Assembly: GCA_964504715.1 (NCBI GenBank)
Contig: CAZDEP010000003.1
Coordinates: 10,111 to 74,110 of the forward strand
Origin: an uncultured Candidatus Saccharibacteria bacterium
GTDB taxonomy: Bacteria > Patescibacteriota > Doudnabacteria > UBA920
Reading direction: 5' to 3'
Length of the DNA stretch: 64,000 bases
This document shows positions 17,717 to 60,967 of this stretch, in pieces (within the stretch, counting starts at the first letter, position 1; the number at the start of each line of letters is the position of its first letter). The notes beneath the pieces were generated by a model, which had not been told where the DNA came from, did not search any database, and saw only the letters and a list, made by a program, of their open reading frames with translations. Position numbers and translations under genes: made by a program.

Positions 17717-17722
17717 ATGGAA

Positions 17723-20734: not shown

Positions 20735-20750
20735 ATCATGTTCTTTGCTC

Positions 20751-22361
20751 CTATTCTACCTTAAATTTCATCATCATGCCACTTTCTAGATGTTCAGCAA
20801 TATGACAATGCGCCATCCAAACGCCGGGATTGGTAACGTCCAAGAGGATTTCAACAGTGTCTCCGGTTTGAATAAGCGCCGTGTCTTTCCAGACCAGGTT
20901 GTCGTTTTTTACCCCGTTGGTCGAAAGCACCAGAAATCGCTGGCCGTGGAAATGAATGGGATGCTGCATCGGGTGCATGGCGTTGGGGTCGTTGAAAATC
21001 TTGATTTTAACCTTGTCGCCGACTTTAAATTTCCAGTCTATATCCATGTTCTTTTTGCCCGTAACGCTGTCAGTAAGTTGCCAAGTTAATGTTTTGGTTG
21101 TGGAATTGACGTTCATCATGTCCATGTCGTCTTCCCATTCGATTTTTTTGATGCCACCGGACATGCCCATGGCGTCATTGTCCATCATCATGCCGTTGCT
21201 CATCATATGCTGGCCCATTCCACTATTCATCATGCCGTTTTGAGATCCCATATTAACCGCCAGGGTCAGGGTCTTGTCCGGCTGTTTGTCGAAGTACGAC
21301 CTAAAGGGATCTATGCTGGCCTGCACATCTTTATTGGTTCTTAGCATGTTAAATTCCTGGGCGTAAGAAGGATTAGCAGAATCGGCTGAAACGTTTATTT
21401 TCGCCAGAGGGTAAGTTTGTGGCGAGCTCCTGTGCTCTAAGGTAAAACTGCCGGGCTGGGAAAATAACACGTCGACAATGGCGCGCTCGGACGGACTAAT
21501 GATAATATTTTCCACGAACTGCTCTTTTTCGTATTTGCCGCTGTCGCCGCCCACCAGCTTCATTTTTGCTCCCGGCAAGTTAACGTTAAAAGTACGGGTA
21601 TTGGCCGCGTTGGTCAGATACAGTCTGACCAACTCGCCCTTTTTGGCGCTGATTTGATAGTTGGTTTCGCCGTTGACCAGCATAACGTCGCCAAACCTGC
21701 CCATCAGAGTGTGGTCAGCGGTTTCAGCATTGAACGCTGTAATGCCATTATCGTCAAACAGAACGTCATCCAAAAATAGCGCCTGCTCCTGGTTTACCGG
21801 CGACCAATAATCAGGGTCGTTCGATGACACTAAGAAATTGCCGTAAAGTCCCATTTCCTGGGCATAATCTTCCCGGATGTGTGGATGATACCAATACATA
21901 CCTTCGTCCGGGAATTTGATTTTGTAAGCAAACGATTCGCCAATCCCGACTGCTTTCTGGGTCACGTCCGGCACGCCGTCAAAGGCATTGTCCAGCCTGA
22001 CGCCGTGGGAATGAATGGTCGTTGGCACGTCGGTGTTGTTGGTAAAATTTATGGTTACTTCCGAACCCTTAGCCGCTTTAATTAATGGCCCCGGCACAGA
22101 GCCGTTATAACCCAGCATCTTAACTTCTAAATTTCCGATTTTTTTTCTGACAATGTCCGCGGTCAAATTAAAAGTGTCGCCGTTTTTTAATTCCACGGTT
22201 TGCTGGGGTTTGGCTTCCGGCAGCTGGCCTAAAGATTGGCTGGAAAATTTAATTTGCGAACCGGCCGGTTTTGGACTTTGCGATTTGCTTTTTATCAGCC
22301 ATACGGAACCGGCCGCGACCAGCAAAACGGCAATTATTAAATATATGCTGTTTTTTTTCAT
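20751..22361 (-). CDS. multicopper oxidase (CueO/laccase-like) with a Met-rich insert
   Basis: Signal peptide. Copper-ligand motifs HSHG, WYHPH, HPIHFHG and HCHIAEHLESGMMM. Met-rich segment MGSQNGMMNSGMGQHMMSNGMMMDNDAMGM. Confidence 0.9.
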   Translation of the reverse strand: MKKNSIYLIIAVLLVAAGSVWLIKSKSQSPKPAGSQIKFSSQSLGQLPEAKPQQTVELKNGDTFNLTADIVRKKIGNLEVKMLGYNGSVPGPLIKAAKGSEVTINFTNNTDVPTTIHSHGVRLDNAFDGVPDVTQKAVGIGESFAYKIKFPDEGMYWYHPHIREDYAQEMGLYGNFLVSSNDPDYWSPVNQEQALFLDDVLFDDNGITAFNAETADHTLMGRFGDVMLVNGETNYQISAKKGELVRLYLTNAANTRTFNVNLPGAKMKLVGGDSGKYEKEQFVENIIISPSERAIVDVLFSQPGSFTLEHRSSPQTYPLAKINVSADSANPSYAQEFNMLRTNKDVQASIDPFRSYFDKQPDKTLTLAVNMGSQNGMMNSGMGQHMMSNGMMMDNDAMGMSGGIKKIEWEDDMDMMNVNSTTKTLTWQLTDSVTGKKNMDIDWKFKVGDKVKIKIFNDPNAMHPMQHPIHFHGQRFLVLSTNGVKNDNLVWKDTALIQTGDTVEILLDVTNPGVWMAHCHIAEHLESGMMMKFKVE

Positions 22362-46938: not shown

Positions 46939-47442
46939 ATGTCCCGTCCTTTTGACCCCACAACCCTTAATATTTTGGCCGAACTTGCCGACAAACCGTC
47001 CGTAAGTTTTTTGGAACTCCGAAAAAACATTTGCCCCCAAAAATCCTATAAAGAATTTTACAATACGCTTTACAGGCTCCATTCCGAAGGCCTTATAAAA
47101 AAAAGCGGCGACCAGGGGACGCTTAAAGCGGAAATTACCCACGAAGGCAAAACTTTGCTTATGAGAAAAACCCCGCGCCGCGACGGCGTGTGGAAACTTG
47201 TAATTTTTGACATTCCGGAAAAACACAAATACGTCAGAAGCGTCCTGAGGGCCAAATTAAAAAGCCTGCTATTTAAAAAATGGCAAAACAGCATTTGGGT
47301 TTCGCCTTACGCGCTGGACAAAGAATTGGAAGAAGAAATGAAGCAGCTGGCAAAAAAATATTTTGTCCGCCTCATCCGCGCCGCTGACATTAACGAAATG
47401 TCGGATTTGGAAAGAATGTTTAAATCTGATTTTACTGCTTAA
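46939..47442 (+). CDS. PaaX-like transcriptional regulator (N-terminal wHTH plus PaaX_C-like C-terminal domain)
   Basis: C-terminal WKLVIFDIPEKHKYVRSVLRAKLKSLLFKKWQNSIWVSPY resembles the PaaX C-terminal signature (W.LV.....E..R..R..LR..L...GF..L..S.W..P). Confidence 0.55.
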   Translation: MSRPFDPTTLNILAELADKPSVSFLELRKNICPQKSYKEFYNTLYRLHSEGLIKKSGDQGTLKAEITHEGKTLLMRKTPRRDGVWKLVIFDIPEKHKYVRSVLRAKLKSLLFKKWQNSIWVSPYALDKELEEEMKQLAKKYFVRLIRAADINEMSDLERMFKSDFTA

Positions 47443-47581
47443 TACAAACCAAAAAAACTTTTTTTGGTTTAACTACGCAATAATTTCGCACGATATATTC
47501 TACCGTCCCTCTAAGCATGCTAAAATATTAGAGGAGGCTTTTTGTTTAGATAAAAATTCCAACTATTTAAAACTACACAAC

Positions 47582-48928
47582 ATGCCTCAGAATGATACTG
47601 TCATCAAACATTATAAATCCGGCGTAGAGCTGGAACATTTTATTTTAGACCGCAAAGGAAATGTTTCGAACTGGGCAAACGAACTAATTTCAAAAATCAA
47701 AAAACTCGACCCGACCAACGGCGTCAAGCACGAAATAGCAGCAGGCATGGTGGAAATTGCCACCGAAGCGGAACTCAATATACCCTATATTGGGCGCCAA
47801 CTGTGCTCCGACTTGGAATTGCTAATTAAAACCGCCGAAGCCAATGACTTGAGCCTTTACCCCTTCGGGACGTATCCCGGCGCTTTCATGCCGGAAATCT
47901 TTGACACGCCCAGGTATGCCGCGCAACAAAAAATTTTTGGCAAGCAACGGCTGGCTATAGCAGGGCGCGTTGCCGGGCTCCACTGCCATTTTACCCTGCC
48001 AAAAGGCGTTTTTGATGAAAACCGCAGGCAAATAAAAAACTTAATATTTTCCAAGCATAAAGAAAGCCTTATTAACATTTTTAACCTTTTTACCGCTTTG
48101 GATCCGGCTTTAACCTGTTTTGCCCAAAGTTCGCCTTTCTATCAGGGCGATCATTTGGCTAAAGACAGCCGGCTGGTTGTATACCGCGGTGGCGAGGTCT
48201 TTAATTACCCTCAGGGATGCTGCGCGATATTTGACGGAAAATATGGGGGTCTCCAGCCGTATCTGGCTACCGGCACGGACTTACTCCACTTCATTGAACG
48301 GCAATTTGATTTTTTCAAAAAACTCTTAAAAGAACTGGAAATCAATATAAAAACCTTCCTGAAGCACGGGTCGATCCTAAGCGTCACTTGGGCGCCAGTA
48401 AGGATAAACGCCCATGGCACCACCGAACATCGGGGCATGGACAGCAATTTGCCGTCGATTGTCATTGCACTCTCTCTGCTCATAAAATACATAGCCAAAG
48501 AAGTTCAGGAAAAGTTTATTTCGGTCGTAGCTTCGGACGAAGCCATAAACAACCCCTTTGCCTATGACGGAAAAAAAATTATCATCCCCCCGGCTTCAAT
48601 TGTAAGGTCGCACCTCCAGCCCAAAAGCGCATTTGAAGGCCTGTCTAACCCGGATATATTCCGCTATTGCCAGGCTCTTTTAAAACTGGGAAAGAGCCTA
48701 ATACCCGAGGACAGGCTGCCCTTTCTATCGCCTTTGGATAATATGTTAAAAAGCGGAGAAACTATTTCTGATAAGTTGATAAAACTTGCCAAAGAGTCAG
48801 GCTGGAATGGCAAAAGCAGTTTAAACCCCGAGCTCTGCAGACATCTGGCCTTAAGTTCCGCAGAAATGCTAAAAACGGATTTGACCTCATTAAAACAGCC
48901 GCTTGTAGATTTTACCCCAAAAAACTGA
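47582..48928 (+). CDS. glutamate-cysteine ligase family 2 (GCS2) / carboxylate-amine ligase YbdK-like protein
   Basis: The N-terminal GVELEHFILD motif and overall size (~450 aa) fit GCS2. The start was chosen at MPQNDTV, to avoid overlap with the upstream regulator gene. Confidence 0.6.
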   Translation: MPQNDTVIKHYKSGVELEHFILDRKGNVSNWANELISKIKKLDPTNGVKHEIAAGMVEIATEAELNIPYIGRQLCSDLELLIKTAEANDLSLYPFGTYPGAFMPEIFDTPRYAAQQKIFGKQRLAIAGRVAGLHCHFTLPKGVFDENRRQIKNLIFSKHKESLINIFNLFTALDPALTCFAQSSPFYQGDHLAKDSRLVVYRGGEVFNYPQGCCAIFDGKYGGLQPYLATGTDLLHFIERQFDFFKKLLKELEINIKTFLKHGSILSVTWAPVRINAHGTTEHRGMDSNLPSIVIALSLLIKYIAKEVQEKFISVVASDEAINNPFAYDGKKIIIPPASIVRSHLQPKSAFEGLSNPDIFRYCQALLKLGKSLIPEDRLPFLSPLDNMLKSGETISDKLIKLAKESGWNGKSSLNPELCRHLALSSAEMLKTDLTSLKQPLVDFTPKN

Positions 48929-48988
48929 ACAGCAATTACCGCTTAATAAAGCCTATCAGCAAAGGCAGGACAGGCTTCGATTAACACA

Positions 48989-49025
48989 CAAAGATCATCT
49001 TTGCTTAAAGCAAAGATGATCTTTG
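48989..49025. terminator. perfect 16-bp hairpin (caaagatcatctttgc-ttaaa-gcaaagatgatctttg) between convergent genes
   Basis: Perfect inverted repeat. The flanks are not strongly U-rich, so terminator function is only an inference. Confidence 0.45.
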
Positions 49026-49060
49026 TAATAATATGCTTGAACCTATAGGAAAAATAATTT

Positions 49061-50167
49061 TTATTCGACTATTCGCTTTGTGACGTTTTCCCCCACCGGC
49101 AGCAGCCTGTCTGCACTGTTGGCTGGGACTACGGCAGAAAAGTCATTGTCAGGATTCCAGGAATTGTAGACGTCCAAGGAAGGATAAGGGTGGCGCGCCG
49201 TCGCTGTCAGGTAGTAAATGGTGCCGTTGTCGCTAATGTTTAGGCCGGGTTTGTGGCGGACGGTACCTTGGGACAAAATGTCGCCCAAAGGCAGGCCATC
49301 CAGCTCAGGAGCGGTAACTACCAGGACGGAAGAGAACTTAAAGCCCAATGTACTAAAGACCTGGGAAGAGACAAAACCGTGCTTTTGGCCTTCGGCTATT
49401 AAGTACACTGTGGGATTAGTGGGAGATTTAACAAGGCTGCCGCTGCCGGGCTTTAAAAGGGTGCCTTCGGGTACGCTTAAGTCTACGGAACTTGCCGGCT
49501 TGGCGTCTTTGAATTCCAAGCCATAGGATTTAAGCATGCCGGGGTTGGTTACGCCCTGCCTTTGGCCGTTTTGGATGACGTAGAAAGTACCGGAGTTGTT
49601 GATGAGTTTAATTGAATACGCGGAACCGTAAGTATTGCCTGAAGAGCCGGTTAATGACGATCCGCCGCTCGAAGATCCCGATGAAGATCCTCCCCCGCCG
49701 CTAGAAGACCCTGACCCGCCTGAGCTGTATGATCCTCCGCCGCCTCCCCCGCCGCCGCCTGATGATCCCGAGCCTTCCGAAAGTACCGGGGGATTTGACC
49801 CGCCTTGGGTGCCGCCCGTCTGGCTGTCAGCCGGCGTGGTGAAGGAAAATTTTTCCGGCCCCACCCAGCCGCCTGACTTATCGTAGGAAAATAAGGAATA
49901 ATAATAAGCCGTCCCGCCGGCAACGGTCGAATCGGTATAAGTGCTTGAACCGCAGACCAAGGTTGTCAAAGGCTGTTCGTTACCCGGCGAGCTTAGGTGG
50001 CCGAACGTCGAACGGAAAATTTTCATGCTGGCACAATCTTCGTCTTCTGTGAGTTCCCATTCCAAAGTAACAGGCGCCGCGGCAAGCGCAGGCCGGATTA
50101 AACTGAATACCAAAAAACAAAAGCTGAAGGAAGCCAAACCAAGGAAAAATTTTCTGTTCATAATCAT
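49061..50167 (-). CDS. secreted protein: N-terminal FN3-like domain, Gly/Ser-rich linker, and a ~190-aa C-terminal domain nearly identical to the C-terminus of the 54673-58173 protein
   Basis: Signal peptide. GGGGGGGGSYSSGGSGSSS linker. C-terminus SIKLINNSGTFYVIQNGQRQGVTNPGMLKSYGLEFKDAKPAS... is shared with the other gene. Confidence 0.7.
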   Translation of the reverse strand: MIMNRKFFLGLASFSFCFLVFSLIRPALAAAPVTLEWELTEDEDCASMKIFRSTFGHLSSPGNEQPLTTLVCGSSTYTDSTVAGGTAYYYSLFSYDKSGGWVGPEKFSFTTPADSQTGGTQGGSNPPVLSEGSGSSGGGGGGGGGSYSSGGSGSSSGGGGSSSGSSSGGSSLTGSSGNTYGSAYSIKLINNSGTFYVIQNGQRQGVTNPGMLKSYGLEFKDAKPASSVDLSVPEGTLLKPGSGSLVKSPTNPTVYLIAEGQKHGFVSSQVFSTLGFKFSSVLVVTAPELDGLPLGDILSQGTVRHKPGLNISDNGTIYYLTATARHPYPSLDVYNSWNPDNDFSAVVPANSADRLLPVGENVTKRIVE

Positions 50168-50181
50168 TAATTATGGATTTC

Positions 50182-53100
50182 TTAAGGCCGAGGCAAAAAC
50201 GCCCATTTAGGCGAACCGTTAAATCGGTCCTGATAACCTATGTGCGTCCTATACCACTCCCAGGCATCCAAGCCCGAGCGGCCGTTATAAGAGAATTTGG
50301 TTAAGAAGGAGGAAGCGCCGTAGCTCAACACCGAATAGCCGCCCTCGTAATCGCCGTCATTAACAAAGCCCGAAGTCCTGAGCTGGTACTGCAACTGCAT
50401 GGCATCTTTAACCTGTGCCCAGGTCTGGAAATAATTCCCGCTTAAGTCCATGGAAGGCGTGCGGTAATCCTGCGTGTAATAGGGGCTGTAAGAAGGATCA
50501 AAAACCTGCCCGAGCAAATTCTGGGCAAACCTTTCGCGCATAGGGCCAATTTGCGGATAGCCTAATTCTTCAATATGCCCAAACACCACGTGCAGAAAGG
50601 CATTTTGGAAAGGAATGCTCACGCGCGAAGCTTTGCTGGTGTCAGCTTCGCCATCCGCGCCATAGCCGCCGCTTAGGAAATTTAAAGGATTCGGGAATTT
50701 ATTAAAGGCGTTTTTGCCGATGCACCAAATAGAAGTTTCAGCCATCTTGTTAAACGGATTGGTTGAACACGGCTGGTAGAAATAACCATTGGTTACATTA
50801 AACGAACCTTCACGAACAGCCAAGTTATTCATTAACTTGTCGGTAAAATATTTCTTTTCCGGCGTACCGTCCGGCGCTATAGATGCCGTCTCGGCTATGC
50901 TTCTAAATGCCCAAGCCACGCCCCTGTCTTCATGCGCGAACAAGCCTTTGTTATTTAGGCGCGTATTGGGATTCGGCACCATTAAGTCGTAACCCGCCAC
51001 ATTGTATAAGCTTTCCAATATATACCAATCCCCGCTCAAAAGATACGGGATATAGTAATAGTTCGGTTCGTGGGTAACATCGGGTGTCCAACCCGGAGTT
51101 TGGTCGTCATCGACAGCGAACATATAATCACCGTCCTGGTCCGCGCTTTTGCTTGTGTTGCCGTAAGTCTTGGGCCGCGCATCCAAGGAAATACTGCGGC
51201 CGAACATATCGTCGCTCATGCCAGAGACATACGCTTTGCCCGTCTTAAGTTCCCGCGCCTGCAAAGGTACCTGGTTGGCAGCTTCCACGTTGCCCATTAG
51301 TTCAGAAAAAAGTTCCGGATTCCTGCTGTCTTGCGACTTCATGGAATACAAATAAACCATTTGCCAGGTAGTGAACAGGCCAATGTCGGGACGTTGGCCG
51401 GCGGCGGGCTGATTTTTCCAAATTTGTCCCTGCACGCCCAATGTAGGATTGTAGCCAATGTCGCCCTTGTCGCTATTGCGCCAGCCTGGCGTGTGGCCTT
51501 CCGAATGTGAATAGCCGGTATCCAGCATGGCGTTTATGGCGCCATCGGTAATATTCAAATTGGTGTTAAAATTCGGAATGGCTTTACTGTAAACCAAATA
51601 GGGCAAATTGTAATCTATATAAGAAGTTCCCGGCGTTTGGCCAATATAGAAAGTCTTGCGCCAGCGCGTGCGCGCCAGCTGGGTAATGTTGGCCTTGGAA
51701 TAGACCGGCGTTAAGCCGGCACCCAGCTTTAATGTTAAGTCATACTTTTGATTCTGCAATTTCTGCGTCCACATATTTTCCAAAATCATTTCGACTTTGG
51801 TGGAATTTGGGGTTTTGGGAGTAAAGGTTGCCACAAAAATCGGATGCATGGCTTTAAACAAGGAGGTGTCCGCCGCGCGCCAGCCACTAACGCCTTCTAC
51901 AGTACCAAGCGCGCCCCAGGCGGCAACGCTGAGTTCCGGCGTACCGCCGTATTTGCGGCCGTCCGCATTCGGGCAAGAGCTCACCCCAATTTTTAAAGTA
52001 TTGCCGGTCTTGCCGCAAATTCTTATTCTTTCTCCAAACAGGTTTACTACCGAAGGCACCGGAATATCGCTGGCATCCAGCACGTTCATGGTCGTATCCC
52101 CGGCTCTAAAATAGCCGTTGGGCGTGGCCAAAAACGAAGTTTTATTTTTATAGCCAAAATCGTACTTTAAGGCCGTACTTCTGTCTTCCAAAATTATTTG
52201 CGTAACAATAGACCCTTTTAGCCAATACCTGAAATCCCCGTTTTGGAGCATTGTACGGGCACTGGCTGACTGTGTGCTTCCGTCTTTACTGGTTTCAATC
52301 TGAGCATCAAAATTATATCCGGCCGCGAGCATTTGGTCTTTGGTCAGGGCCTGCGCTGTGCCGCAATTGCAGTTCGACTGGTTTACGAAATCTACATTTA
52401 ACGAACCATTGCCCGGCAAAGTAGCCACAAAAGAAATAATAACATGTTTTACGCTGCCGTCCTCGTAGCGGCTCATTACATCTGCCTGGGTAAGAGTTGC
52501 CGAGCCATTCACCCTCGCCTGCGGATAATTGGTTATTTCACCTTTGGCAAATACGCGCGAGATGGAAAAAGTCCGCTGTTCCGATTGCGCGGCCCCGCTT
52601 TTTATAGTTACGCCATTAGAAGAGGGCATGGGATTAACTATGGCCGGCACGGTGGAACCGTATGTTGGTATGGTAGAAGAAGTGGTAGAAGTGGGTGTTG
52701 GATTGGGCGTGGGGGTGGAAATAGGCGGGGAGATCACCGCTTCTTTTTTCATCCAGGACAATTTTGCCACGGCATCAACGGCATTTTCAAAATATTCCAT
52801 TTTTACCGTGTGGGTGCCGGCTGTTAAAGTTTTGGTATAGCTGTAAGTCGTTGCCGACTGGTTTATCCATTTGTCTATAATTGCCTGGCCGTCCACATAC
52901 ACTCTTACGCCGTCGTCTGCCGTCGCTGCAAAAATATAATCAGCCGCTTCAAAATTAAATTTGCCTTCGTAAGTAGCGGAAAATTTGTCCGCCGGCACGA
53001 GGGAGGAAGGGCTGCCGCCGGCCCAGTCAAAATTAATGGAATTAACCGTGGAAGTGGCTTTTAAAGTTTCAAAATTCATGCCCGCGTAGTAGCAAGCAGT

Positions 53101-54444
53101 AAAAGCGTTGGTAGCCGCGGAAGGACACACAAACTGGGGAGGAGATGAAGTCGGGGGTGTAGATACCGGGGGATCGGTTGAGATGGGAGTGGTAGTGGCC
53201 GCTGACTGGTCCAAGGCCGTATAATATTTGCGTGCAAGCAAAACACCCTTGCCATTGGGTTCGCTGTAAAATTCCACCTTGACCCTGGATTTGGGCGAAA
53301 TAACATACCCCGAATAAGCCGAACCCTCTTTCGGGGCGTTAGCTAAAATTGCGGCGCCGTTTACATACAAAGAACCGGAGCGGTCCAAAGTCCTTTGCCA
53401 CTCAACTCGGTAATTCCAAAAATTATTTTGGTAGCTTGCGGCTGTCACGGAAATTTTTAAAGACCGGTTATTTACAAGTTGGCGGGTGTAAATCACCGTA
53501 TCGTTTGTTGTGGTAGTCGGGGTGGAAGTTGGCCCCGAAGCCTGGGCGGGCGGCTGGGTGGTAGTGGTGGGGGTAGATGTAGCAGGGGGGGTGGTCGGCG
53601 TGGTAACGACAGGCTGGTTCGGGCTCGTGGCGGGCGCGCCGGCAAAAGCGTAAATGTCGGAAACTTCCTGGCCGCTTAAAGCGCGGTTATAAATCCTCAG
53701 TTCGTCCAGTTCGCCGTAGTATGGGTTGCGTGGCGAATCGTCTTTGTCTCCCAGGGTGATGTTGGGATTGCTGCTTAAAGCAAGCGTGGTAGCCGTACGG
53801 GTAGCCTGCAAAGCGCCGTTTATGAACAAAGACAAAAGTCCGGTAGATTTGGCACGCTCGGCGCAAAAATGCTGCCAGGCGTCGTTGCTGACTTGGGAAG
53901 TGCTGCGGATACTTTTGTCTATGTTAATATCCGGACTGGCGCCGCCAACGCCAAAGACAAACCTGCCCCATGCGTCCACTCCCATCCCGAAGTCCTGTCC
54001 TATCCCCCTCGATTCCGAAGTGACTATGGCGGTGGATTGGTAATGTTCGGCGTCAGTGCCTTCGGCGTCGGTTTTTATCCAGGCACAAATTGTAAAGTCA
54101 TCCTGGACCGGCTTTTTAAAAATTATTTTCTGCGTGCCGTTGCCGTCAAAGCTCGCGGCCTTGCCTATTTTCCCTTCAGCCTGGCTGGCGGTATTGGTTG
54201 TCGGCTTGTATTCGTCGGAAACCAAAAATCCGCCCTCAAAAGGAGCGGATTGATTTTCAAAAGGCAAATATACCACCAAGCCGCTGGTAGTCACCTCGCC
54301 CAAAACACGGGGATTCTTAACAATTGATGCGGCTGTCTGGGCGGCCAGGTTGTCTACGTAAAGGCTGGTCAAAAAACCCTGGTAGCCCACGGTCAGCATG
54401 CACAGAGAAGCAAATACCCAAACGGTAAATAATCGGCGGTTCAT
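50182..54444 (-). CDS. giant (1420 aa) secreted protein with an N-terminal LamG/concanavalin A-like domain and a PA14-like domain, followed by a ~800-aa uncharacterised (possibly polysaccharide-active) region
   Basis: Signal peptide. LamG signature ...GELDELRIYNRALSGQEV. PA14-like YYAGMNFETL...FSATYEGKF...FAATADDGVRVYVDGQAIIDKW. Confidence 0.75.
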   Translation of the reverse strand: MNRRLFTVWVFASLCMLTVGYQGFLTSLYVDNLAAQTAASIVKNPRVLGEVTTSGLVVYLPFENQSAPFEGGFLVSDEYKPTTNTASQAEGKIGKAASFDGNGTQKIIFKKPVQDDFTICAWIKTDAEGTDAEHYQSTAIVTSESRGIGQDFGMGVDAWGRFVFGVGGASPDINIDKSIRSTSQVSNDAWQHFCAERAKSTGLLSLFINGALQATRTATTLALSSNPNITLGDKDDSPRNPYYGELDELRIYNRALSGQEVSDIYAFAGAPATSPNQPVVTTPTTPPATSTPTTTTQPPAQASGPTSTPTTTTNDTVIYTRQLVNNRSLKISVTAASYQNNFWNYRVEWQRTLDRSGSLYVNGAAILANAPKEGSAYSGYVISPKSRVKVEFYSEPNGKGVLLARKYYTALDQSAATTTPISTDPPVSTPPTSSPPQFVCPSAATNAFTACYYAGMNFETLKATSTVNSINFDWAGGSPSSLVPADKFSATYEGKFNFEAADYIFAATADDGVRVYVDGQAIIDKWINQSATTYSYTKTLTAGTHTVKMEYFENAVDAVAKLSWMKKEAVISPPISTPTPNPTPTSTTSSTIPTYGSTVPAIVNPMPSSNGVTIKSGAAQSEQRTFSISRVFAKGEITNYPQARVNGSATLTQADVMSRYEDGSVKHVIISFVATLPGNGSLNVDFVNQSNCNCGTAQALTKDQMLAAGYNFDAQIETSKDGSTQSASARTMLQNGDFRYWLKGSIVTQIILEDRSTALKYDFGYKNKTSFLATPNGYFRAGDTTMNVLDASDIPVPSVVNLFGERIRICGKTGNTLKIGVSSCPNADGRKYGGTPELSVAAWGALGTVEGVSGWRAADTSLFKAMHPIFVATFTPKTPNSTKVEMILENMWTQKLQNQKYDLTLKLGAGLTPVYSKANITQLARTRWRKTFYIGQTPGTSYIDYNLPYLVYSKAIPNFNTNLNITDGAINAMLDTGYSHSEGHTPGWRNSDKGDIGYNPTLGVQGQIWKNQPAAGQRPDIGLFTTWQMVYLYSMKSQDSRNPELFSELMGNVEAANQVPLQARELKTGKAYVSGMSDDMFGRSISLDARPKTYGNTSKSADQDGDYMFAVDDDQTPGWTPDVTHEPNYYYIPYLLSGDWYILESLYNVAGYDLMVPNPNTRLNNKGLFAHEDRGVAWAFRSIAETASIAPDGTPEKKYFTDKLMNNLAVREGSFNVTNGYFYQPCSTNPFNKMAETSIWCIGKNAFNKFPNPLNFLSGGYGADGEADTSKASRVSIPFQNAFLHVVFGHIEELGYPQIGPMRERFAQNLLGQVFDPSYSPYYTQDYRTPSMDLSGNYFQTWAQVKDAMQLQYQLRTSGFVNDGDYEGGYSVLSYGASSFLTKFSYNGRSGLDAWEWYRTHIGYQDRFNGSPKWAFLPRP

Positions 54445-54672
54445 TATTTTTTTGTTAAAAACAAATAGTTAAAATTTTTATCTTTACAACGACTACGCAA
54501 AAAACTTCGGAACCAAAAAAACCTTGCAAAAAAACTTAAGGAGCCGGCTCCTCGGACCAAAATATTTTATTGTATTTTTGTTTGCTTTTATTTCAAATCC
54601 GAAACTCAAACTGTATATATTATAGCACATCTAGAAAATTTTGTCCAATGGAAATTCTCGCTTATTGATGCT

Positions 54673-57600
54673 TTATTCCACCACCCTCTTTGCCACCACA
54701 TCGCCTATGGGTATTTGCCGGTCGGCTTCGTTAGCCGGGACTACGGCGGAAAAGTCATTGTCCGCGTTCCAGGAGTTGTAGACATCCAAAGAGGGATAAG
54801 GCAGCCTGTGGGTGTCGGTCAGGTAATAAACGGTGCCATTGTCGCTGATGTTAAGGCCGGCTTTGTGGCGGGCAGTACCTTGGGACAAGATTTCTCCCAA
54901 AGACATACTGTCAAGTTCCGGAGCCGTAACCACCAGTACGGAAGAGAACTTAAAGCCTAAAGCCGAGAAAACCTGGGAAGAGACAAAACCGTGCTTTTGG
55001 CTGTTGGCAATCAGGTAGACTGTGGGATTTAATGGGGATTTGACCAAGCTGCCGTCTGCGGGCTTAAGTAGCGAGCCTTCGGCCACGCCTAAGTCCACGG
55101 GACTGGCAGGCTTGGCGTCTTTAAATTCCAAACCGTAAGTCTTGAGCATGCCCGGGTTGGTAACGCCCTGGCGCTGGCCGTTTTGGACTACATAAAAAGT
55201 GCCGGAGTTGTTGATGAGTTTAATTGAATCGCCCAAACTTTGGCGCGGCAAAACTGACGGCGAGGCGGGCATAACCCCAAACGATCCCCCACTCCCGCCC
55301 GATCCGCCAGATGCGGACGAAGGACCGGAAGATCCCGCTCCGCCTGAAACGGGCGGAAGATTAGGCCCAAGTTGGGCGGGAGGAATTGGGGCCGAAGACG
55401 GAGGAGTTGAAGTGGCTAATGGAATTCCGCTAACAGTGGAAGGCGGAGTGCCGGAGGCGTTTGGCGCGGGAGGGTTATTCGGAAGTGCCGCAGAAGTTGA
55501 TGTTGCTGCCGGCGCGGCAGGTGGCGTGATGACAACCGGCGGAACTGCCGGCGCAGCGGGTAAAGTTCCGCCGACCGAATACGCAAAATCCAAAGGCCCG
55601 TAAGTTGCATTGGTAATGCCGGTCGGGTACCAGGTATTTTGAGAAGTGAAATACACGCCGCTGTTTGCAAAAGCGTCGCCCGTGGTAACCACGCGGCTGT
55701 CCAAATCGCGCCATGTATCCCCTGCCGCCCTTTCCTGGCTGACCAGGTAATAAGTTTTATTGGCGGACAAAACCACCGGCGCGGAAAGCTGCGCGTAGGC
55801 AAACTGGCCGGACGCAAAATTGGCGAGGTTAATACTGACCTGCGTGCCGCTTACGTCCTGCCCGGCTGAGGCATCAACAATTTTTAATTGATGATTTTCA
55901 ATGCTGCCGCTTTCTACAAATCTTGCCAGGGCTTTGATTGTCAAATTAGCGCTGCCGACAGTAAACTTCGTCCCCACCCAGCCGGTGTAGTCGCTGCGCA
56001 GCGTGCCTAAAGTTTTACCGGTTACAAAAATTTGGCTGCCGGAAGGAGGAGTTGATATCGTTCCCAAAGGGGCGGGAGCCGGCGACGGGGCAGGAACAGG
56101 AGCGGGTGGAACAACGGGAGTTGATGTGGCAACCGGCGCAGGGGCGGGAGTGGGAGCAGGAGCCGGCGCAGGGATGGGGCTGGGCGCGGGAGCGGGCGGC
56201 GGAGTGGTGGGGCTAGGGGGCGTGCCCACATAATATTTAAAATCCACGGGAACATAAGACGTCCTTGAAATGCCGGTGGTGCTGTAACCTGAACCGTTGT
56301 AATATACGCCGTTATTTACCGCTGCGTCGGTTTTCGTGCTTAAAATAGTGTTGCCATTGTTATGCCACTGGTCCCCCAAGATGGTTTCCTGGCTTACTAT
56401 ATAGTAAGACGTATTCGCGGAAAGAGTAACCGGCGAGGACACATCTGTATAAGCAAACTGGCCCGCGGTTTTTCCAGATGTTGTTACCGTGGCCGAACCC
56501 AAATCGGAGGCGTCAGAAGCGCGGACAATTTTCACGGCATGATTTTGGCTGTTGCCCGTTACCACATAGCGACCCAGGGCAGTTAAAGTAATAGGCTGGC
56601 TGCCCACAGTCATGGAAAAACCCACCCAGCCCGAATAATCGTTCCGGAGTGAATCAAAAGAATTTACGGAAGTTACAAAGCCGGCCGAAGAGGTTACGGG
56701 CGAAGGCGCGGGAGCCGGGGCGGGGCTGGGGGCGGGAGCGGGAGAAGGGCTGGGAGAGGCGGCCGCGGTTAGGGTTATGTTGGAACTTGTCTGGTTGCCG
56801 TTGCCGGAAAAAACATTGCCTGAGCCGCTAACGCCGGAAAAAGCGGCAGAGCCCGCGCCGGACACGGCGTAAGAGGCGTTGCCGGAAAAATTGTTGTCGG
56901 AAATTACCACACCCTGGGACTGCGCTGGCGTGTTCCAAAAAGTTATCCCGTCGCGCGAATGGCCGCTAAAGCTGTTCGAGCTTATGTTGAAGCCGTTTAA
57001 ATTTGCGTTGCCGCCAAAAACTATCCCGGCAAGCTGGGGCTGGGAAGCGTTGGTGCTGGAAAAGGTATTGCCAGAAACAGTGACGTTCTGCCCCCCGTTG
57101 TTGAAATACAGTCCGCCTGTCAAGTTGGAGCTTTTGTTGTTGCGGATAGTATTTCCGGAGAAACTTGAATTGCGCAAAATTTCCGAAGAGGCGCCGTCTT
57201 CATTTACCACATAAATGCCCGACTGGGTATTTTCCTCAAATATGTTATTGCTGACGGTTACGTTGCGCGCGCCGTAATTTAAGGTTACCTGCAAACCATG
57301 GCAATCGTTCCGGTTTGCGGTGTTGCCGGAAATTAGGCCGGTGGAATTCGCGTTATAATACCCATCCATTAAAACTTTAAGTCCGGCGCAGCCGGTGTCA
57401 TTGGCCGTGTTGTTTTGTACTTTTACGGTGCCCGTGCCCTGAACCACAATGCCGGAGTGGCCCGTTTTGTAGACAAAGTTGCCTTCCACAGTCGGATCGG
57501 TCTCTATTGCCGACTGCCACCAGTTGCCCAGCCACATGCCGCGCATGACCCGAACGCTTGGCTGCGGCAGGTTGGTGGTATCGCGGTCTATGGTAATATT

Positions 57601-58173
57601 TCGGTAAATATTACCTCTGTTTCCCGAAGCCTCAAAAACCGCGGTCGCCGCGCTGTCGGGCCCGCACTGCATGTTCATGTTGCGTATGGTAATGTCGGAA
57701 AAAACCGCGTTGGTGTTGTTGGTGGCGCCAAAAGCCGCAGCGCAATAATTGCTGTTGCCATCAACATTCAAATTTTTTATGGTACAGTTGGCGCAGCTTC
57801 GGACATCGAACAAAATTCCGCCGCTTATCCCGTTGGAAGCTGTCCCGATGCCAGTAACTTTAAAACCGCCGCCGTTTACTCCCTGCACTGTAATCCCGCT
57901 TCGGTTGCTTAAAGTTACGGTGCTGCCCAAATTCGCCTGGCAGTCGAAATTCACCGTGCCGTTGTCGGCTACGGCCGAGAATGCCTGGGCAATGGCGCTT
58001 GCGGCATCGCCCGCGCCGCACGCGCCGAAGCTGCTTATGTTAACGCTGGTGGCCGTGCCTTTTACCTGGCCCGATATTTCGGCATAGGTTAAGGCCCAAA
58101 GCGGTTGAAGTGGCATGAGCGCGGCGAGTAAAAGAGATGCGGTTGTCACTATACGAAAAAATTTTTTTTGCAT
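54673..58173 (-). CDS. large (1166 aa) secreted right-handed beta-helix repeat protein with Pro/Ala-rich linkers, two copies of a ~170-aa beta-sandwich domain, and the shared C-terminal domain
   Basis: Signal peptide. Repetitive N..GN.....N......G (PbH1-like) turns. Linkers SPSPSPAPAPSPAPAPAPSP. Duplicated domain (SDYTGWVG...QFAY...LSANKTYY). The C-terminal ~190 aa is ~85% identical at the DNA level to 49061-49650. Confidence 0.8.
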   Translation of the reverse strand: MQKKFFRIVTTASLLLAALMPLQPLWALTYAEISGQVKGTATSVNISSFGACGAGDAASAIAQAFSAVADNGTVNFDCQANLGSTVTLSNRSGITVQGVNGGGFKVTGIGTASNGISGGILFDVRSCANCTIKNLNVDGNSNYCAAAFGATNNTNAVFSDITIRNMNMQCGPDSAATAVFEASGNRGNIYRNITIDRDTTNLPQPSVRVMRGMWLGNWWQSAIETDPTVEGNFVYKTGHSGIVVQGTGTVKVQNNTANDTGCAGLKVLMDGYYNANSTGLISGNTANRNDCHGLQVTLNYGARNVTVSNNIFEENTQSGIYVVNEDGASSEILRNSSFSGNTIRNNKSSNLTGGLYFNNGGQNVTVSGNTFSSTNASQPQLAGIVFGGNANLNGFNISSNSFSGHSRDGITFWNTPAQSQGVVISDNNFSGNASYAVSGAGSAAFSGVSGSGNVFSGNGNQTSSNITLTAAASPSPSPAPAPSPAPAPAPSPVTSSAGFVTSVNSFDSLRNDYSGWVGFSMTVGSQPITLTALGRYVVTGNSQNHAVKIVRASDASDLGSATVTTSGKTAGQFAYTDVSSPVTLSANTSYYIVSQETILGDQWHNNGNTILSTKTDAAVNNGVYYNGSGYSTTGISRTSYVPVDFKYYVGTPPSPTTPPPAPAPSPIPAPAPAPTPAPAPVATSTPVVPPAPVPAPSPAPAPLGTISTPPSGSQIFVTGKTLGTLRSDYTGWVGTKFTVGSANLTIKALARFVESGSIENHQLKIVDASAGQDVSGTQVSINLANFASGQFAYAQLSAPVVLSANKTYYLVSQERAAGDTWRDLDSRVVTTGDAFANSGVYFTSQNTWYPTGITNATYGPLDFAYSVGGTLPAAPAVPPVVITPPAAPAATSTSAALPNNPPAPNASGTPPSTVSGIPLATSTPPSSAPIPPAQLGPNLPPVSGGAGSSGPSSASGGSGGSGGSFGVMPASPSVLPRQSLGDSIKLINNSGTFYVVQNGQRQGVTNPGMLKTYGLEFKDAKPASPVDLGVAEGSLLKPADGSLVKSPLNPTVYLIANSQKHGFVSSQVFSALGFKFSSVLVVTAPELDSMSLGEILSQGTARHKAGLNISDNGTVYYLTDTHRLPYPSLDVYNSWNADNDFSAVVPANEADRQIPIGDVVAKRVVE

Positions 58174-58248: not shown

Positions 58249-60360
58249 TTATTTGCCCAAAGTATAAAGACGGTAGACTTCGGCGGCGGTAAGGGAGCGG
58301 GAATATACGCGCACGTCGTCCAGACTGCCGTCAAAGTCGCCGGCATCGCCTGCGCACGAACCCGTAGAGTATGCTAGCCATAGATAATTACTTAAGCCAC
58401 TGGCAATGTACGTAGCCTGGGAAGTGGTATTTTCCAAAGAACCATTGACGTAAATTTTCAAGCCGCCGCTCGCGTCCCAGGTATTTACTATGTGCGTCCA
58501 AACTCCGCTGCTTATGGTGGATGTGCCGGTTACCGAAACCCCTCCCCCATTCCAACTGTAGCCGCGGGCATAGCCCGATACAATTGCCATTGGCGGCAGG
58601 CACCAACCTAAGGCGTCAGCTCGAGAAGACATGTGAATTATATTCCCGTCGGTTTCCCCGCTGTTCGGCCTTACCCAAGCCGCGAAAGTATAGTCTCGGT
58701 TGGAAGTGCCCGCTTCGCTAAAACCGCTTGCGGTAGTGTACTGGCCGCTGCCCGTAAAATTCATGCCCTGGCCAACTTTCCCAATGGCCGGGGCAGGACT
58801 GCCCGTAAGAGTTGAATTTCGCGCGTTGCCGCTGCGGTCGTAAACTGTGGCGCCGGAAACGTCGGGACCGTCAAAACTCCACAGGCCCACCAGGCCTTCC
58901 GTCATTTTGCTGTTTTGCGACGCGTTAACTTTGGTTTCATTCTGCGTATAAAGCGCGGCAATTTCGGCAGCCGACAACGCGCGGTTGTAAACGCGAACGT
59001 CGTCTATTATTCCGTTAAAATAGGCGTAAGTTCCACCTCCTAAATTAACATCTAAGCGCCCCATTTCAGGTTTTGAATCGGTAATGTTGGGCGACTGATC
59101 GCCCCCCACATCAAAATAGGCTGCGCCGGTTACCAACGAACCATCTACATATATTTTACTTGTCGATGCTATTAGGCCGGGAGTTTTAGTCATAACTACA
59201 AAATGCCATTCTGCGGTTGATAAAGCGTTATCGGCTTTAAATCTTTTTTGATAGAAATCCAAAGCTGGCCTTCCCCCATATAAAGTCATTGATAAACCCT
59301 GAGCTGTTGCATAGCGCTGTATTGAAATTGGCGCTGCATAATTAGAGTACCACTGACTTGCTTTTACCCACAGACTTAAAGTTAATGTTGCATCTCCCGA
59401 AATCCCTAAATTTTGACTTCCAACAATGTAGTTAGTGCTGCCGTTAAAATTAAGTGCGCCGCCTTTTTTACCAGTGGTCCAAGTTGCAGATGTTATTATT
59501 CCTGTGTTGCCGTTTCCGCTTGAGTCGCCGGCATGTCCGCCCGAGCCTTCATTCATTGGCCAGTAGCCCACTAGGCCGGAATTGGAAACCAATTTTCTGG
59601 TAACCTGCCCGCTTTGGTAAAGCGCGGTGATTTCGGTGGCGCTTAACTCACGGCTATAAAGCCTCAAGTCATCTATTTTGCCGTTAAAAAAAGCTTGTTC
59701 GTTTACGCCTGTGGGGGCATCAACGCCAATATATAGAGGAGCCGATGTGGTTTCGGTGTTTAAGAGCCCGCTTACTGCGCCGTCCGCCACTCCGTCCAAA
59801 TAAAATGTTCCTGTCTTTGCCGCATTGTTAAAAACAAACGCCACATGATGCCAGGTGTTGAGGCTGGGGGATGTGTTGCTTGTCCTTAAAGCGGACCCGC
59901 CAAACTCCTGATACCAAATTAATTTATTCCCATTTGAAAGGCCAAATTCGTAAGTAGGCGAATTTAAACCATCGTTCTTGCTAATAATAATTCTATATGT
60001 GCCTGCTCCGCCAGCTATGTATATCCAGGCTGCCGTAGTTATGTCAGTACTTATCATATCCAAAGCCGGAGTGGTAGATGCGGCAATGTAGTCGCTGCTG
60101 CCGTTAAAATTCAAAGCACCGCCTTTTTTACCAGTTGTCCAAGTCCCGCCGGTTATTGTTCCGGCGTTGCCGTTGCCGCTTGCGTCGCCGGCTTTGTAGC
60201 CGGTGGCGTCGTCAAGCGGCCAGTAGCCCACGAGGCCGAGGTTGCTCGGCGGTTTGCCTATGGTGGCGGCCAAGGCTGTTTTGGGCAATGGGAAAAAGGC
60301 GGCGAGAATGGCCAAAAGGAGGAAAAGGGTGAAATGGGTTTTAAAAGGTGAAAGGGGCAT
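58249..60360 (-). CDS. secreted protein with four tandem concanavalin A-like lectin/LamG (Laminin_G_3-type) domains
   Basis: Signal peptide, then four repeats of LVGYWP(L/M)(D/N)...GDSSGNGN.G.I....W..G..G.AL.FNG...YI ... DDVRVYNRALSAAEI. Confidence 0.8.
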   Translation of the reverse strand: MPLSPFKTHFTLFLLLAILAAFFPLPKTALAATIGKPPSNLGLVGYWPLDDATGYKAGDASGNGNAGTITGGTWTTGKKGGALNFNGSSDYIAASTTPALDMISTDITTAAWIYIAGGAGTYRIIISKNDGLNSPTYEFGLSNGNKLIWYQEFGGSALRTSNTSPSLNTWHHVAFVFNNAAKTGTFYLDGVADGAVSGLLNTETTSAPLYIGVDAPTGVNEQAFFNGKIDDLRLYSRELSATEITALYQSGQVTRKLVSNSGLVGYWPMNEGSGGHAGDSSGNGNTGIITSATWTTGKKGGALNFNGSTNYIVGSQNLGISGDATLTLSLWVKASQWYSNYAAPISIQRYATAQGLSMTLYGGRPALDFYQKRFKADNALSTAEWHFVVMTKTPGLIASTSKIYVDGSLVTGAAYFDVGGDQSPNITDSKPEMGRLDVNLGGGTYAYFNGIIDDVRVYNRALSAAEIAALYTQNETKVNASQNSKMTEGLVGLWSFDGPDVSGATVYDRSGNARNSTLTGSPAPAIGKVGQGMNFTGSGQYTTASGFSEAGTSNRDYTFAAWVRPNSGETDGNIIHMSSRADALGWCLPPMAIVSGYARGYSWNGGGVSVTGTSTISSGVWTHIVNTWDASGGLKIYVNGSLENTTSQATYIASGLSNYLWLAYSTGSCAGDAGDFDGSLDDVRVYSRSLTAAEVYRLYTLGK

Positions 60361-60936: not shown

Positions 60937-60967
60937 AATAGGTCCAATAGGACTTATAAGCCCTATT
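60937..60967 (-). promoter_or_regulatory. second copy of the CTTATAAG / (G)GACCTATT-repeat upstream element (upstream of the 60373-60927 gene; it overlaps the stop codon of the 60963-63083 gene)
   Basis: Minus-strand reading: aatagggcttataagtcctattggacctattaaaatttttATG. Confidence 0.4.

What the first reader, a model, noticed from the sequence alone, without database searches (positions are those of the whole stretch)
49061..55260. Duplicated ~590-bp C-terminal module (about 85% DNA identity) on two different genes flanking the 1420-aa gene
The last ~190 codons of the 368-aa gene (49061-49650) and of the 1166-aa beta-helix gene (54673-55260) are near-identical at the nucleotide level (SIKLINNSGTFYV(I/V)QNGQRQGVTNPGMLK(S/T)YGLEFKDAKPAS...). 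Their N-terminal parts are unrelated. This indicates recent domain shuffling or gene conversion of a shared C-terminal module, which is likely a cell-wall or surface anchoring or partner-binding domain. Such near-identical repeats ~5.6 kb apart can mediate recombination or inversion of the intervening giant gene.
Basis: seen in the sequence. Interest (0 to 1): 0.55.

Follow-up and report, generated by a model that had tools for sequence, protein, structure and literature searches.

The report
Shared surface-anchor module on neighbouring genes
Two neighbouring secreted-protein genes of a candidate-phyla-radiation (Patescibacteria) bacterium end in the same 184-residue, three-repeat domain, probably a cell-wall-binding anchor; the two copies are old paralogues that appear to have traded sequence segments, so this is an ordinary kind of surface-protein modularity involving an undescribed domain family.

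Summary
The repeat is real but less similar than stated. The last 184 codons of the 368-aa gene (49064-49615) and of the 1166-aa beta-helix gene (54676-55227) align without gaps at 83% amino-acid and 77.7% nucleotide identity, not about 85%. Synonymous sites are near saturation (dS about 1.0, dN/dS about 0.12), so the duplication is old. The copies are direct repeats, so recombination would delete or duplicate the 1420-aa gene, not invert it.

The module has no Pfam, NCBIfam or PDB sequence match. It consists of three roughly 60-aa repeats (AlphaFold pLDDT 93.6). Their closest solved fold is the repeat domain of the type VII secretion protein EccB. An exhaustive profile search finds 4221 clusters. 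The closest relatives carry it almost always at the extreme C-terminus of secreted Patescibacteria proteins with varied passengers. More distant multi-repeat relatives are fused to SpoIID and amidase domains. I therefore infer a cell-wall-binding anchor.

A syntenic locus from a related genome shows a significant mosaic. Module nt 54-495 group "swapped" between the two genes, while the flanks group by orthology (p<5e-6). This indicates exchange between the copies, although that assembly is of low quality. Verdict: new variant of a known kind, moderate interest.

The parts
49061..50167 (-). 368-aa gene. It encodes a signal peptide (MIMNRKFFLGLASFSFCFLVFSLIRPALA), an FN3-like domain, a Gly/Ser linker and the C-terminal module.
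   Evidence: ORF. The protein has no Pfam hit. The closest module relatives carry FN3 N-terminal parts. An independent assembly, L036, is 99.6% identical over window 48193-51406.
49064..49615 (-). Module copy 1 (184 codons), made of three internal repeats: R1 49448-49615, R2 49262-49447, R3 49064-49261.
   Evidence: hhalign between the repeats gives 96-97% probability. The AF2 model has pLDDT 93.6.
49616..49822 (-). Gly/Ser-rich low-complexity linker between the FN3-like part and the module (approximate bounds).
   Evidence: Translation. It cannot be aligned with the linker of the other gene.
50182..54444 (-). 1420-aa secreted protein (LamG_3, PA14 and a large uncharacterised C-terminal region) lying between the two direct repeats. 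Its stop codon is 15 nt upstream of the start of the 368-aa gene.
   Evidence: Pfam hits. Orthologues at 93% identity (L026) and 52% identity (L010) keep the pairing with the FN3+module gene.
54619..54647 (-). Promoter-like site (TGGACA, 17 nt, TG-TATAAT; 11 of 12 matches) in the 229-nt gap between the beta-helix gene and the 1420-aa gene.
   Evidence: This is a consensus match only.
54673..58173 (-). 1166-aa gene. It encodes a signal peptide, a right-handed beta-helix, two DUF4082-like domains separated by Pro/Ala linkers, a Pro/Ser/Gly linker and the C-terminal module.
   Evidence: The internal duplication appears as repeats D2 and D5.
54676..55227 (-). Module copy 2 (184 codons), made of three internal repeats: R1 55060-55227, R2 54874-55059, R3 54676-54873.
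55228..55536 (-). Pro/Ala/Ser/Gly-rich linker upstream of module copy 2 (approximate bounds).
   Evidence: Translation.

Best explanation
The shared 184-residue segment is one member of a large domain family with no curated model. It consists of three tandem repeats of about 60 residues (three strands plus helices) with the fold of the EccB repeat domain. Patescibacteria attach it through flexible low-complexity linkers to the end of many different secreted proteins.

Inferred function: it most likely holds those proteins on the cell envelope by binding peptidoglycan or another wall polymer. That could be the cell's own wall or that of a host cell. Here it would tether a small FN3-like protein and a beta-helix (pectate-lyase-like) protein that flank a 1420-aa LamG/PA14 surface protein.

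Evolution:
- The two copies are old paralogues (dS about 1) under purifying selection (dN/dS about 0.12).
- The beta-helix gene was probably inserted next to an older gene pair (giant gene plus FN3+module gene) and took its module from the neighbour.
- Since then the two direct repeats have exchanged segments by homologous recombination or gene conversion. The exchange points lie at their best-conserved stretches, so different parts of the module have different histories.

Shown: the repeat itself, its internal structure, the family distribution, the fold match and the mosaic pattern. Inferred: wall binding, the direction of acquisition, and that the mosaic is biological rather than an assembly artefact.
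For: Repeat and selection:
- 83% aa and 77.7% nt identity with no gaps; similarity is bounded by the domain start and the stop codon.
- dS 1.04, dN 0.125.

Domain structure:
- Three internal repeats, hhalign probability 96-97%.
- AF2 pLDDT 93.6 for the whole module.
- The top Foldseek PDB hits for the whole module are all EccB (E down to 1e-5).
- A single-repeat model matches EccB repeats at TM 0.59-0.67 and rmsd 2.6-3.2 A.
- P0014, a multi-repeat relative found with the module profile, passes the Pfam PF05108 (EccB) threshold at 39.3 bits.

Family distribution:
- 4221 cluster representatives at E<=1e-3 and 304 at E<=1e-30. Most carry the module at the extreme C-terminus of proteins of 188-2200 aa; a few carry it directly after an N-terminal signal peptide.
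- All 20 GTDB loci are Patescibacteria MAGs, with up to three dispersed copies per genome.

Partner domains:
- Close family: fn3 in 23/40, plus Big_7, LamG and Beta_helix.
- Distant multi-repeat relatives: SpoIID in 11/35, Amidase_2 in 8/35, plus glucosaminidase and polysaccharide deacetylase.
- The repeat domains of EccB1 were reported to resemble a peptidoglycan-binding protein, PlyCB (PMC4769845).
- P0162, a homologue of the same beta-helix core, carries PG_binding_1 instead of the module.

Exchange between copies:
- In the four-way alignment with the syntenic locus L026, 42 informative sites group the 368 module with L026's beta-helix module and the 1166 module with L026's 374-aa gene module. 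These sites span module nt 54-495.
- 26 sites group by orthology, mainly in the upstream linker and in nt 500-552.
- There are 13 runs among the 68 sites; 0 of 200,000 permutations gave as few.
- dS is 0.25-0.31 within a sequence type across genomes and 0.9-1.1 between types.
- At nt 397-480 the L026 374-aa gene copy carries the beta-helix type, a non-reciprocal pattern.
- A third genome (L035) has a 368-type 30-mer joined to the beta-helix-type tail.
- In other genomes, neighbouring or same-genome copies are 66-86% identical against a median of 53% between genomes. One pair has a 71-nt identical tract.
- The window's 368-aa gene arrangement is reproduced in an independent assembly, L036.
Against: - There is no experimental or direct evidence for wall binding. 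The module itself matches no known anchor domain, and it does not reach Pfam PF05108 directly.
- Similarity to PlyCB itself is weak (TM 0.44, probability 0.13-0.21). The EccB-peptidoglycan link is itself only a hypothesis in the literature.
- The cleanest recombination signal, a reciprocal swap, rests on a single comparison locus. L026 is a scaffold with N gaps, one of them inside the module at L026 7123-7151. Its beta-helix gene has two in-frame stop codons.
- The swap is bounded by the two longest exact runs shared by L026's own copies: 32 nt at nt 4-35 and 44 nt at nt 376-419. Mis-phasing in a de Bruijn graph assembly would switch paths at exactly such places.
- No closer relatives were found to replicate the pattern.
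Confidence: 0.6

Rival explanations
1. The copies arose by an old duplication and simply diverged under purifying selection, with no exchange between them. On this view the cross-genome mosaic is an assembly artefact of the comparison MAG.
For: dS is about 1 and there are no long identical tracts between the window's two copies; the longest run is 31 nt. L026 has N gaps, one inside the module, and two in-frame stops. The swapped segment is bounded by L026's own longest shared runs, 32 and 44 nt.
Against: Mis-phasing only permutes segments that already exist, so it cannot explain nt 397-480. There the L026 374-aa gene copy is of beta-helix type yet still differs from L026's own beta-helix copy at 7 of 85 sites. 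It also cannot explain the 368-type 30-mer joined to the beta-helix tail in an independent k=31 contig from a third genome. The shared runs are shorter than the usual final k of 55 used by metaSPAdes (my own knowledge of the assembler, not checked for this MAG). Neighbouring copies are more similar to each other than to other genomes' copies in several other genomes, and one pair has a 71-nt identical tract.
Confidence: 0.2
2. The module is a protein-protein docking or oligomerisation domain. It would assemble the FN3-like protein and the beta-helix enzyme onto a common scaffold, for example the 1420-aa protein or an S-layer, rather than binding the wall.
For: The pairing of the giant gene with the FN3+module gene is conserved down to 52% identity. 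P0162, a homologue of the beta-helix core, uses cohesin-like and dockerin modules. PlyCB is a ring-forming oligomer, and the EccB periplasmic domains assemble with one another in the ESX-5 complex, which appears among the fold hits.
Against: The module occurs on hundreds of unrelated passengers and at dispersed genomic sites without a recurrent partner gene. Distant relatives sit on peptidoglycan hydrolases, which is typical of wall-targeting domains.
Confidence: 0.15
3. The module is a C-terminal secretion or sorting signal, analogous to the T9SS C-terminal domain, sortase signals or PEP-CTERM, and is removed or processed after export.
For: It occupies the extreme C-terminus in nearly all close relatives.
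Against: Several relatives carry it at the N-terminus directly after the signal peptide (P0024, P0026, P0046, P0094, P0122, P0149). Others carry 5-16 tandem repeats internally. There is no hydrophobic tail or LPXTG-like motif; the proteins end in KRIVE and KRVVE. There is no NCBIfam or Pfam sorting-signal hit.
Confidence: 0.04

Closest known systems
Repeat domains R1-R4 of EccB, the periplasmic part of the mycobacterial type VII secretion core component (Pfam PF05108; PDB 4kk7, 3x3m, 5cyu, 7np7)
   Same: The repeats are about 55-60 residues long with a small beta-sheet plus helices. They are the best and only significant solved-structure match. The whole module gives E=1e-5, and a single repeat gives TM 0.59-0.67 and rmsd 2.6-3.2 A at 16-22% identity. 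There is also a transitive sequence link through the multi-repeat relative P0014.
   Different: EccB has an N-terminal transmembrane helix, a central core domain and four repeats in a quasi-twofold arrangement (PMC4769845), and it belongs to a T7SS gene cluster. Here three repeats form a free-standing terminal appendage on secreted enzymes and adhesin-like proteins. The module itself does not reach PF05108. None of the ORFs of 500 aa or more in the window that were scanned against Pfam shows an EccC-like or other T7SS domain.
Cell-wall-binding modules shared by families of surface proteins and lysins (LysM, SH3b, PG_binding_1, SLH, CWB2 of Clostridioides Cwp proteins, choline-binding repeats, PlyCB)
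   Same: Same architectural logic: a repeat-built module joined by a flexible linker to many different secreted passengers, with several genes per genome. More distant relatives sit on amidase and SpoIID enzymes. Concerted evolution of such modules among paralogues is a familiar pattern (my own knowledge).
   Different: There is no sequence match to any of these families. Fold similarity to PlyCB is weak (TM 0.44). Binding to a wall polymer has not been tested.
Recombination and gene conversion between repeated segments of surface-protein genes, as in the cassette systems of Neisseria and Mycoplasma
   Same: Segments are exchanged between paralogous copies. The breakpoints lie at conserved stretches and the result is mosaic genes.
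   Different: There are only two expressed copies and no silent cassettes. The exchanged part is a conserved domain under purifying selection, not a variable antigenic region, and exchange is rare on the timescale of dS about 0.3. There is no evidence of programmed variation.

Membership tests
EccB (T7SS_ESX1_EccB, PF05108) | Sequence match to the family model above its gathering score | tested here: not met
   The 368-aa protein has no Pfam hit at E<=0.01 and the 1166-aa protein has none for the module region. Only the distant multi-repeat relative P0014 reaches 39.3 bits against a cut-off of 27.
EccB (T7SS_ESX1_EccB, PF05108) | Repeat-domain fold (small beta-sheet plus helices, about 55 aa) | tested here: met
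   Foldseek gives E=1e-5 for the whole module. A single repeat gives TM 0.59-0.67, rmsd 2.6-3.2 A and probability 0.97-1.0 against EccB1, EccB3 and EccB5. The models are predictions (pLDDT 93.6 and 85.9).
EccB (T7SS_ESX1_EccB, PF05108) | N-terminal transmembrane helix, central core domain with four repeats, and T7SS neighbours (EccC, EccD, MycP) | tested here: not met
   The module is a C-terminal three-repeat unit behind unrelated passengers. The large ORFs of the window that were scanned are P-type ATPases, a multicopper oxidase, LamG/PA14 proteins, a DUF2341 protein and others.
Named cell-wall anchors (LysM, SLH, SH3b, PG_binding_1, CW_binding_1/2, GW) | Match to the Pfam or NCBIfam model | tested here: not met
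   No such family was found for either protein. There is no PDB sequence relative, either with the single sequence or with the profile.
PlyCB-like cell-wall-binding subunit | Fold similarity to PlyCB (PDB 4f87, 7kwt) | tested here: inconclusive
   The single repeat gives TM 0.44, rmsd 4.1-4.3 A and probability 0.13-0.21. The link rests mainly on the published EccB1-PlyCB comparison (PMC4769845).
Cell-wall-binding domain (functional class) | Direct binding to peptidoglycan or a secondary wall polymer | not testable with these tools
   There is only contextual evidence: the terminal position behind linkers on signal-peptide proteins, and relatives fused to SpoIID, Amidase_2 and glucosaminidase.
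C-terminal sorting signals (LPXTG/sortase, PEP-CTERM, T9SS CTD) | Motif plus hydrophobic tail, or a CTD model match; strictly C-terminal | tested here: not met
   There are no model hits. The proteins end in KRIVE and KRVVE. Some relatives carry the module at the N-terminus or as internal arrays.
   dS is 1.04 and the longest exact run is 31 nt.
Paralogues subject to gene conversion or recombination | Phylogenetic incongruence along the alignment when compared with orthologous loci | tested here: met
   42 swapped against 26 orthologous informative sites fall into 13 runs, permutation p<5e-6. A two-breakpoint model explains 62 of the 68 sites. Caveat: the comparison locus L026 is of low quality.

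The most novel reading that the evidence does not exclude
The three-repeat module is the main surface-display or host-attachment domain of episymbiotic Patescibacteria. It would bind the wall of the host cell rather than the cell's own wall. Reciprocal swapping of module segments between neighbouring genes, by a double crossover or by excision and reintegration between direct repeats, would be a regular way of re-assorting binding specificities among surface proteins.
Probability: 0.12. Interest if true: 0.7.

Novelty: new variant of a known kind. Interest (0 to 1): 0.4.

Why it matters
Patescibacteria are tiny and mostly uncultured bacteria. They depend on contact with other cells, and how they display proteins on their surface is poorly known. 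A domain found on thousands of their secreted proteins, with no curated model and with the fold of the EccB repeat, is a concrete candidate for a general envelope anchor or adhesion module. It is small enough to test directly, for example by fusing it to GFP and measuring binding to sacculi. It would also give the EccB repeat a functional context outside type VII secretion.

The recombination aspect is a modest, textbook-type phenomenon. It matters mainly as a warning that such repeated modules both evolve as mosaics and break or mislead metagenome assemblies.

Tried and rejected
- Sequence searches for the module gave nothing useful: Pfam, NCBIfam, and PDB by phmmer and by profile.
- My recollection that the EccB repeats resemble PlyPSA was wrong. 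The paper names PlyCB.
- The metagenome-contig scan with the 1420-aa protein found only distant relatives of 47% identity or less, so it gave no further syntenic loci.
- The window's own contig could not be retrieved through the 1420-aa protein. The 1166-aa protein is not in the protein collection.
- Literature searches for this domain in Patescibacteria found nothing relevant.
- Inversion of the interval was considered and rejected because the repeats are direct.
- A recent duplication was rejected (dS about 1).
- A C-terminal sorting signal was rejected because N-terminal and internal copies occur in relatives.
- Orthology-based tests against the 20 GTDB loci were not possible, because only the module, not the passengers, is shared with them.
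Full report
**1. The observation**

Four large genes lie head to tail on the minus strand. They encode proteins of 703 aa (58249-60360, three LamG domains), 1166 aa (54673-58173), 1420 aa (50182-54444) and 368 aa (49061-50167). The last 184 codons of the 368-aa gene (49064-49615) and of the 1166-aa gene (54676-55227) align without a gap. The repeat finder reports them as a direct repeat with 5612-nt spacing and finds no inverted repeats.

Similarity begins about 4 nt before the Ser codon of SIKLINNSG and stops at the stop codon. The Gly/Ser- and Pro/Ser/Gly-rich linkers upstream and the DNA downstream cannot be aligned. Identity is 83.2% at the protein level (153/184) and 77.7% at the DNA level (429/552). 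The differences fall 32/11/80 on codon positions 1/2/3.

A tblastn search of the module against the window finds only these two copies (E=1e-102 for the second copy). The N-terminal parts are unrelated.

**2. Age of the duplication**

Nei-Gojobori estimates give dS=1.04 and dN=0.125, so dN/dS is about 0.12. The longest identical run is 31 nt. The copies are old paralogues kept similar by selection on the protein. They are not the product of a recent duplication.

**3. What the module is**

It has no Pfam, NCBIfam or PDB sequence relative. It consists of three internal repeats of about 60 residues: residues 1-56, 57-118 and 119-184. These match each other profile to profile at 96-97% probability. 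AlphaFold2 with a 14-sequence alignment gives a confident model (pLDDT 93.6, pTM 0.87) with three strand-strand-strand-helix units.

Foldseek against the PDB returns only EccB proteins as significant hits (E=1e-5 to 7e-3). The global TM-score is low because the units are arranged differently. A model of the middle repeat alone (pLDDT 85.9) superposes on EccB1, EccB3 and EccB5 repeats at TM 0.59-0.67 and rmsd 2.6-3.2 A over 55-65 residues. PlyCB appears only weakly, at TM 0.44.

The paper on the EccB1 structure describes four repeat domains of this kind. It notes their similarity to the phage cell-wall-binding protein PlyCB and suggests peptidoglycan binding, but states that there is no experimental support (PMC4769845).

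A sequence bridge also exists. P0014 carries 16 copies of the repeat and was found with the module profile at E=6e-116. It passes the Pfam EccB threshold at 39.3 bits.

**4. Distribution of the family**

The word-indexed search found 13 relatives at 53-65% identity, all with the module at the C-terminus.

The exhaustive profile search found 4221 cluster representatives at E<=1e-3 and 304 at E<=1e-30. In most of the top 150, one complete module occupies the last 180 or so residues of proteins of 188-2200 aa. A few have it directly after an N-terminal signal peptide, for example P0024. A more distant group has 3-16 repeats in arrays.

The scan of one genome per GTDB species found 20 loci, all in MAGs labelled Doudnabacteria, Saccharibacteria, Patescibacteria group or unclassified bacteria. 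The module was always at the extreme C-terminus of proteins of 236-1810 aa. One genome had up to three dispersed copies. Only the module, not the passengers, is shared with the window's proteins. The window is therefore most likely from a Patescibacteria genome; this is inferred from its nearest relatives.

**5. Function**

Both window proteins begin with a signal-peptide-like hydrophobic segment.

- In 40 close relatives the partner domains are fn3 (23), FN3-like Pur_ac_phosph_N (19), Big_7, LamG, Beta_helix, DUF2341 and cohesin. These are surface or carbohydrate-active passengers.
- In 35 more distant multi-repeat relatives the commonest partners are SpoIID (11) and N-acetylmuramoyl-L-alanine amidase (8). 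Glucosaminidase, polysaccharide deacetylase, CAP and subtilase domains also occur. This is the typical company of cell-wall-targeting domains.
- The closest homologues of the beta-helix core lack the module. P0162 (70% identity over residues 31-650) has a cohesin-like N-terminus, PG_binding_1 and a C-terminal dockerin. P0163 has nothing.

Taken together these results support the view that the module works like a wall-binding anchor. They do not prove it. The occurrence of N-terminal and internal copies argues against a C-terminal sorting signal.

**6. History of the locus**

A contig from a related genome (L026; GCA_964505125.1, CAZDGW010000004.1) is syntenic. Its gene order is a LamG gene, the beta-helix gene, a 1421-aa gene (93% aa identity) and a 374-aa gene (82%), followed by genes with GCS2 and PaaX_M domains.

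A more distant contig (L010, labelled Saccharibacteria) has the order LamG gene, 1373-aa gene (52%), 367-aa FN3+module gene. There is no beta-helix gene, and the upstream gene carries no module. The pair of giant gene plus FN3+module gene is thus the older unit. The beta-helix gene looks like a later arrival that gained its module locally.

A strong promoter-like site lies between the beta-helix gene and the 1420-aa gene. The 1420-aa and 368-aa genes are only 15 nt apart.

**7. Evidence for exchange between the copies**

The four modules were aligned: the two from the window and the two from L026. The alignment contains 71 parsimony-informative sites.

- 26 sites group by orthology. These lie mainly in the upstream linker and in module nt 500-552.
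- 42 sites group "swapped": the window's 368-aa gene module with L026's beta-helix gene module, and the window's 1166-aa gene module with L026's 374-aa gene module. These span nt 54-495.
- 3 sites group by genome (nt 15, 30 and 246).

The orthologous and swapped sites form only 13 runs. None of 200,000 permutations gave as few, and two breakpoints explain 62 of the 68 sites.

In nt 46-396, dS is 0.25-0.31 for the swapped pairs. It is 0.77-1.08 for the positional orthologues and for the within-genome pairs. The flanking orthologous genes give dS of 0.35 (368 N-terminal part), 0.48 (1420-aa gene) and 0.91 (beta-helix part). Two sequence types therefore predate the split of the two genomes and have changed host gene in one lineage. 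The simplest mechanism is a reciprocal exchange between the direct repeats, by a double crossover or equivalently by excision and reintegration in a different register. One crossover would lie near nt 36-54 and the other near nt 376-435.

In nt 397-480, three of the four sequences share the beta-helix type (92-96% identity). Only the window's 368-aa gene copy keeps the family-typical RHPYPS version. This is a non-reciprocal pattern.

A third genome (L035, Logan contig from SRR14271343, about 90% nt identical) has contig ends inside both modules. This is expected when an assembler breaks at shared k-mers. Its beta-helix tail begins with a 30-mer of the 368 type.

In other Patescibacteria, neighbouring or same-genome copies are 66-86% identical, against a median of 53% between genomes. 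One pair has a 71-nt identical tract in its centre.

**8. Caveat**

L026 is a scaffold with two N gaps, one inside its beta-helix module (L026 7123-7151). Its beta-helix gene has two in-frame stops, at codons 829 and 853. The swapped segment is bounded by the two longest exact runs shared by L026's own copies: 32 nt at nt 4-35 and 44 nt at nt 376-419. Homologous crossovers would occur at such places, but a de Bruijn graph with a small k could also switch paths there.

The window's own arrangement of the 368-aa gene is confirmed by an independent contig that is 99.6% identical (L036). I put the reciprocal swap at a little better than even odds of being biological. I put some exchange between the copies at about 0.8, because the non-reciprocal patterns cannot be produced by mis-phasing.

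**9.

- Domain shuffling and gene conversion are supported, but neither is recent.
- An anchoring or binding role is the best-supported function.
- Inversion is excluded by the direct orientation. A single crossover would delete the 3' part of one module, the 1420-aa gene and the 5' part of the 368-aa gene, leaving a beta-helix gene with a hybrid module.
- No such deletion was seen. All three related genomes keep the 1420-aa gene.

**10. Novelty and score**

Modular wall-binding domains shared by families of surface proteins, and mosaic evolution of such repeats, are well known. What is new is the domain family itself. It is a three-repeat module of EccB-repeat fold, widespread in Patescibacteria and without a curated model. 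I rate it a new variant of a known kind, with interest 0.4.

Noticed in passing
window 2871-22361 (minus strand): A dense metal-handling cluster. It contains three P-type ATPases (1203 aa with two HMA domains, 727 aa with an HMBD domain, 623 aa), a DsbD_2-cupredoxin-HMA fusion protein (561 aa) and a multicopper oxidase (536 aa). This is unusually rich for a small-genome bacterium.
   Followed up: no
window 32653-38010 (minus strand): A 1785-aa ORF whose only Pfam hit is DUF2341. It is another giant secreted-type protein and does not carry the module.
   Followed up: no
window 58249-60360 and 60963-63083 (minus strand): Two tandem paralogous genes of 703 and 706 aa, each with three LamG_3 domains. 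The internal 669-684-nt repeat family D3 reflects these domains. Homologues lie upstream of the giant gene in L010 and L014.
   Followed up: partly
window 55700-56760 (within the 1166-aa gene): An internal duplication: two DUF4082-like domains (repeat D5, 71% nt identity, 654-nt spacing) separated by Pro/Ala-rich linkers encoded by GC-rich imperfect repeats (D2).
   Followed up: no
L026 6472-6550 and 7123-7151: The beta-helix orthologue in the related MAG has two in-frame stops (codons 829 and 853) and an N gap inside its module. It is either a pseudogene or low-coverage sequence. Its module still shows dN/dS of about 0.09 against the window's 368-aa gene copy.
   Followed up: partly
L035 (both ends) and L002-L004 (starts): Metagenome contigs repeatedly end inside module copies, for example at the 30-nt stretch TCAATTAAACTCATCAACAACTCCGGTAC. 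The repeated module evidently breaks assemblies. Gene callers then report truncated proteins of 157-159 aa that start at an internal Met, such as MLFSYG....
   Followed up: partly
L027 10001-13414 (protein P0162): A homologue of the beta-helix/DUF4082 core combines a cohesin-like N-terminus, PG_binding_1 and a C-terminal dockerin in one protein. This is an unusual arrangement that hints at cellulosome-like docking in a small-genome bacterium.
   Followed up: no
window 47363-48928 (plus strand): A GCS2-family (glutamate-cysteine ligase-like) gene lies convergent with the 368-aa gene. It and a neighbouring gene with a PaaX_M domain are conserved downstream in L026.
   Followed up: no
BFVD hits A0A1I9SA71 and A0A345MGB2: Small uncharacterised proteins of Rhodococcus and Streptomyces phages (102-115 aa) match two repeats of the module at TM 0.71 when normalised by the target, with rmsd 2.6-2.8 A. 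They may be phage wall-binding or receptor-binding modules of the same fold.
   Followed up: no
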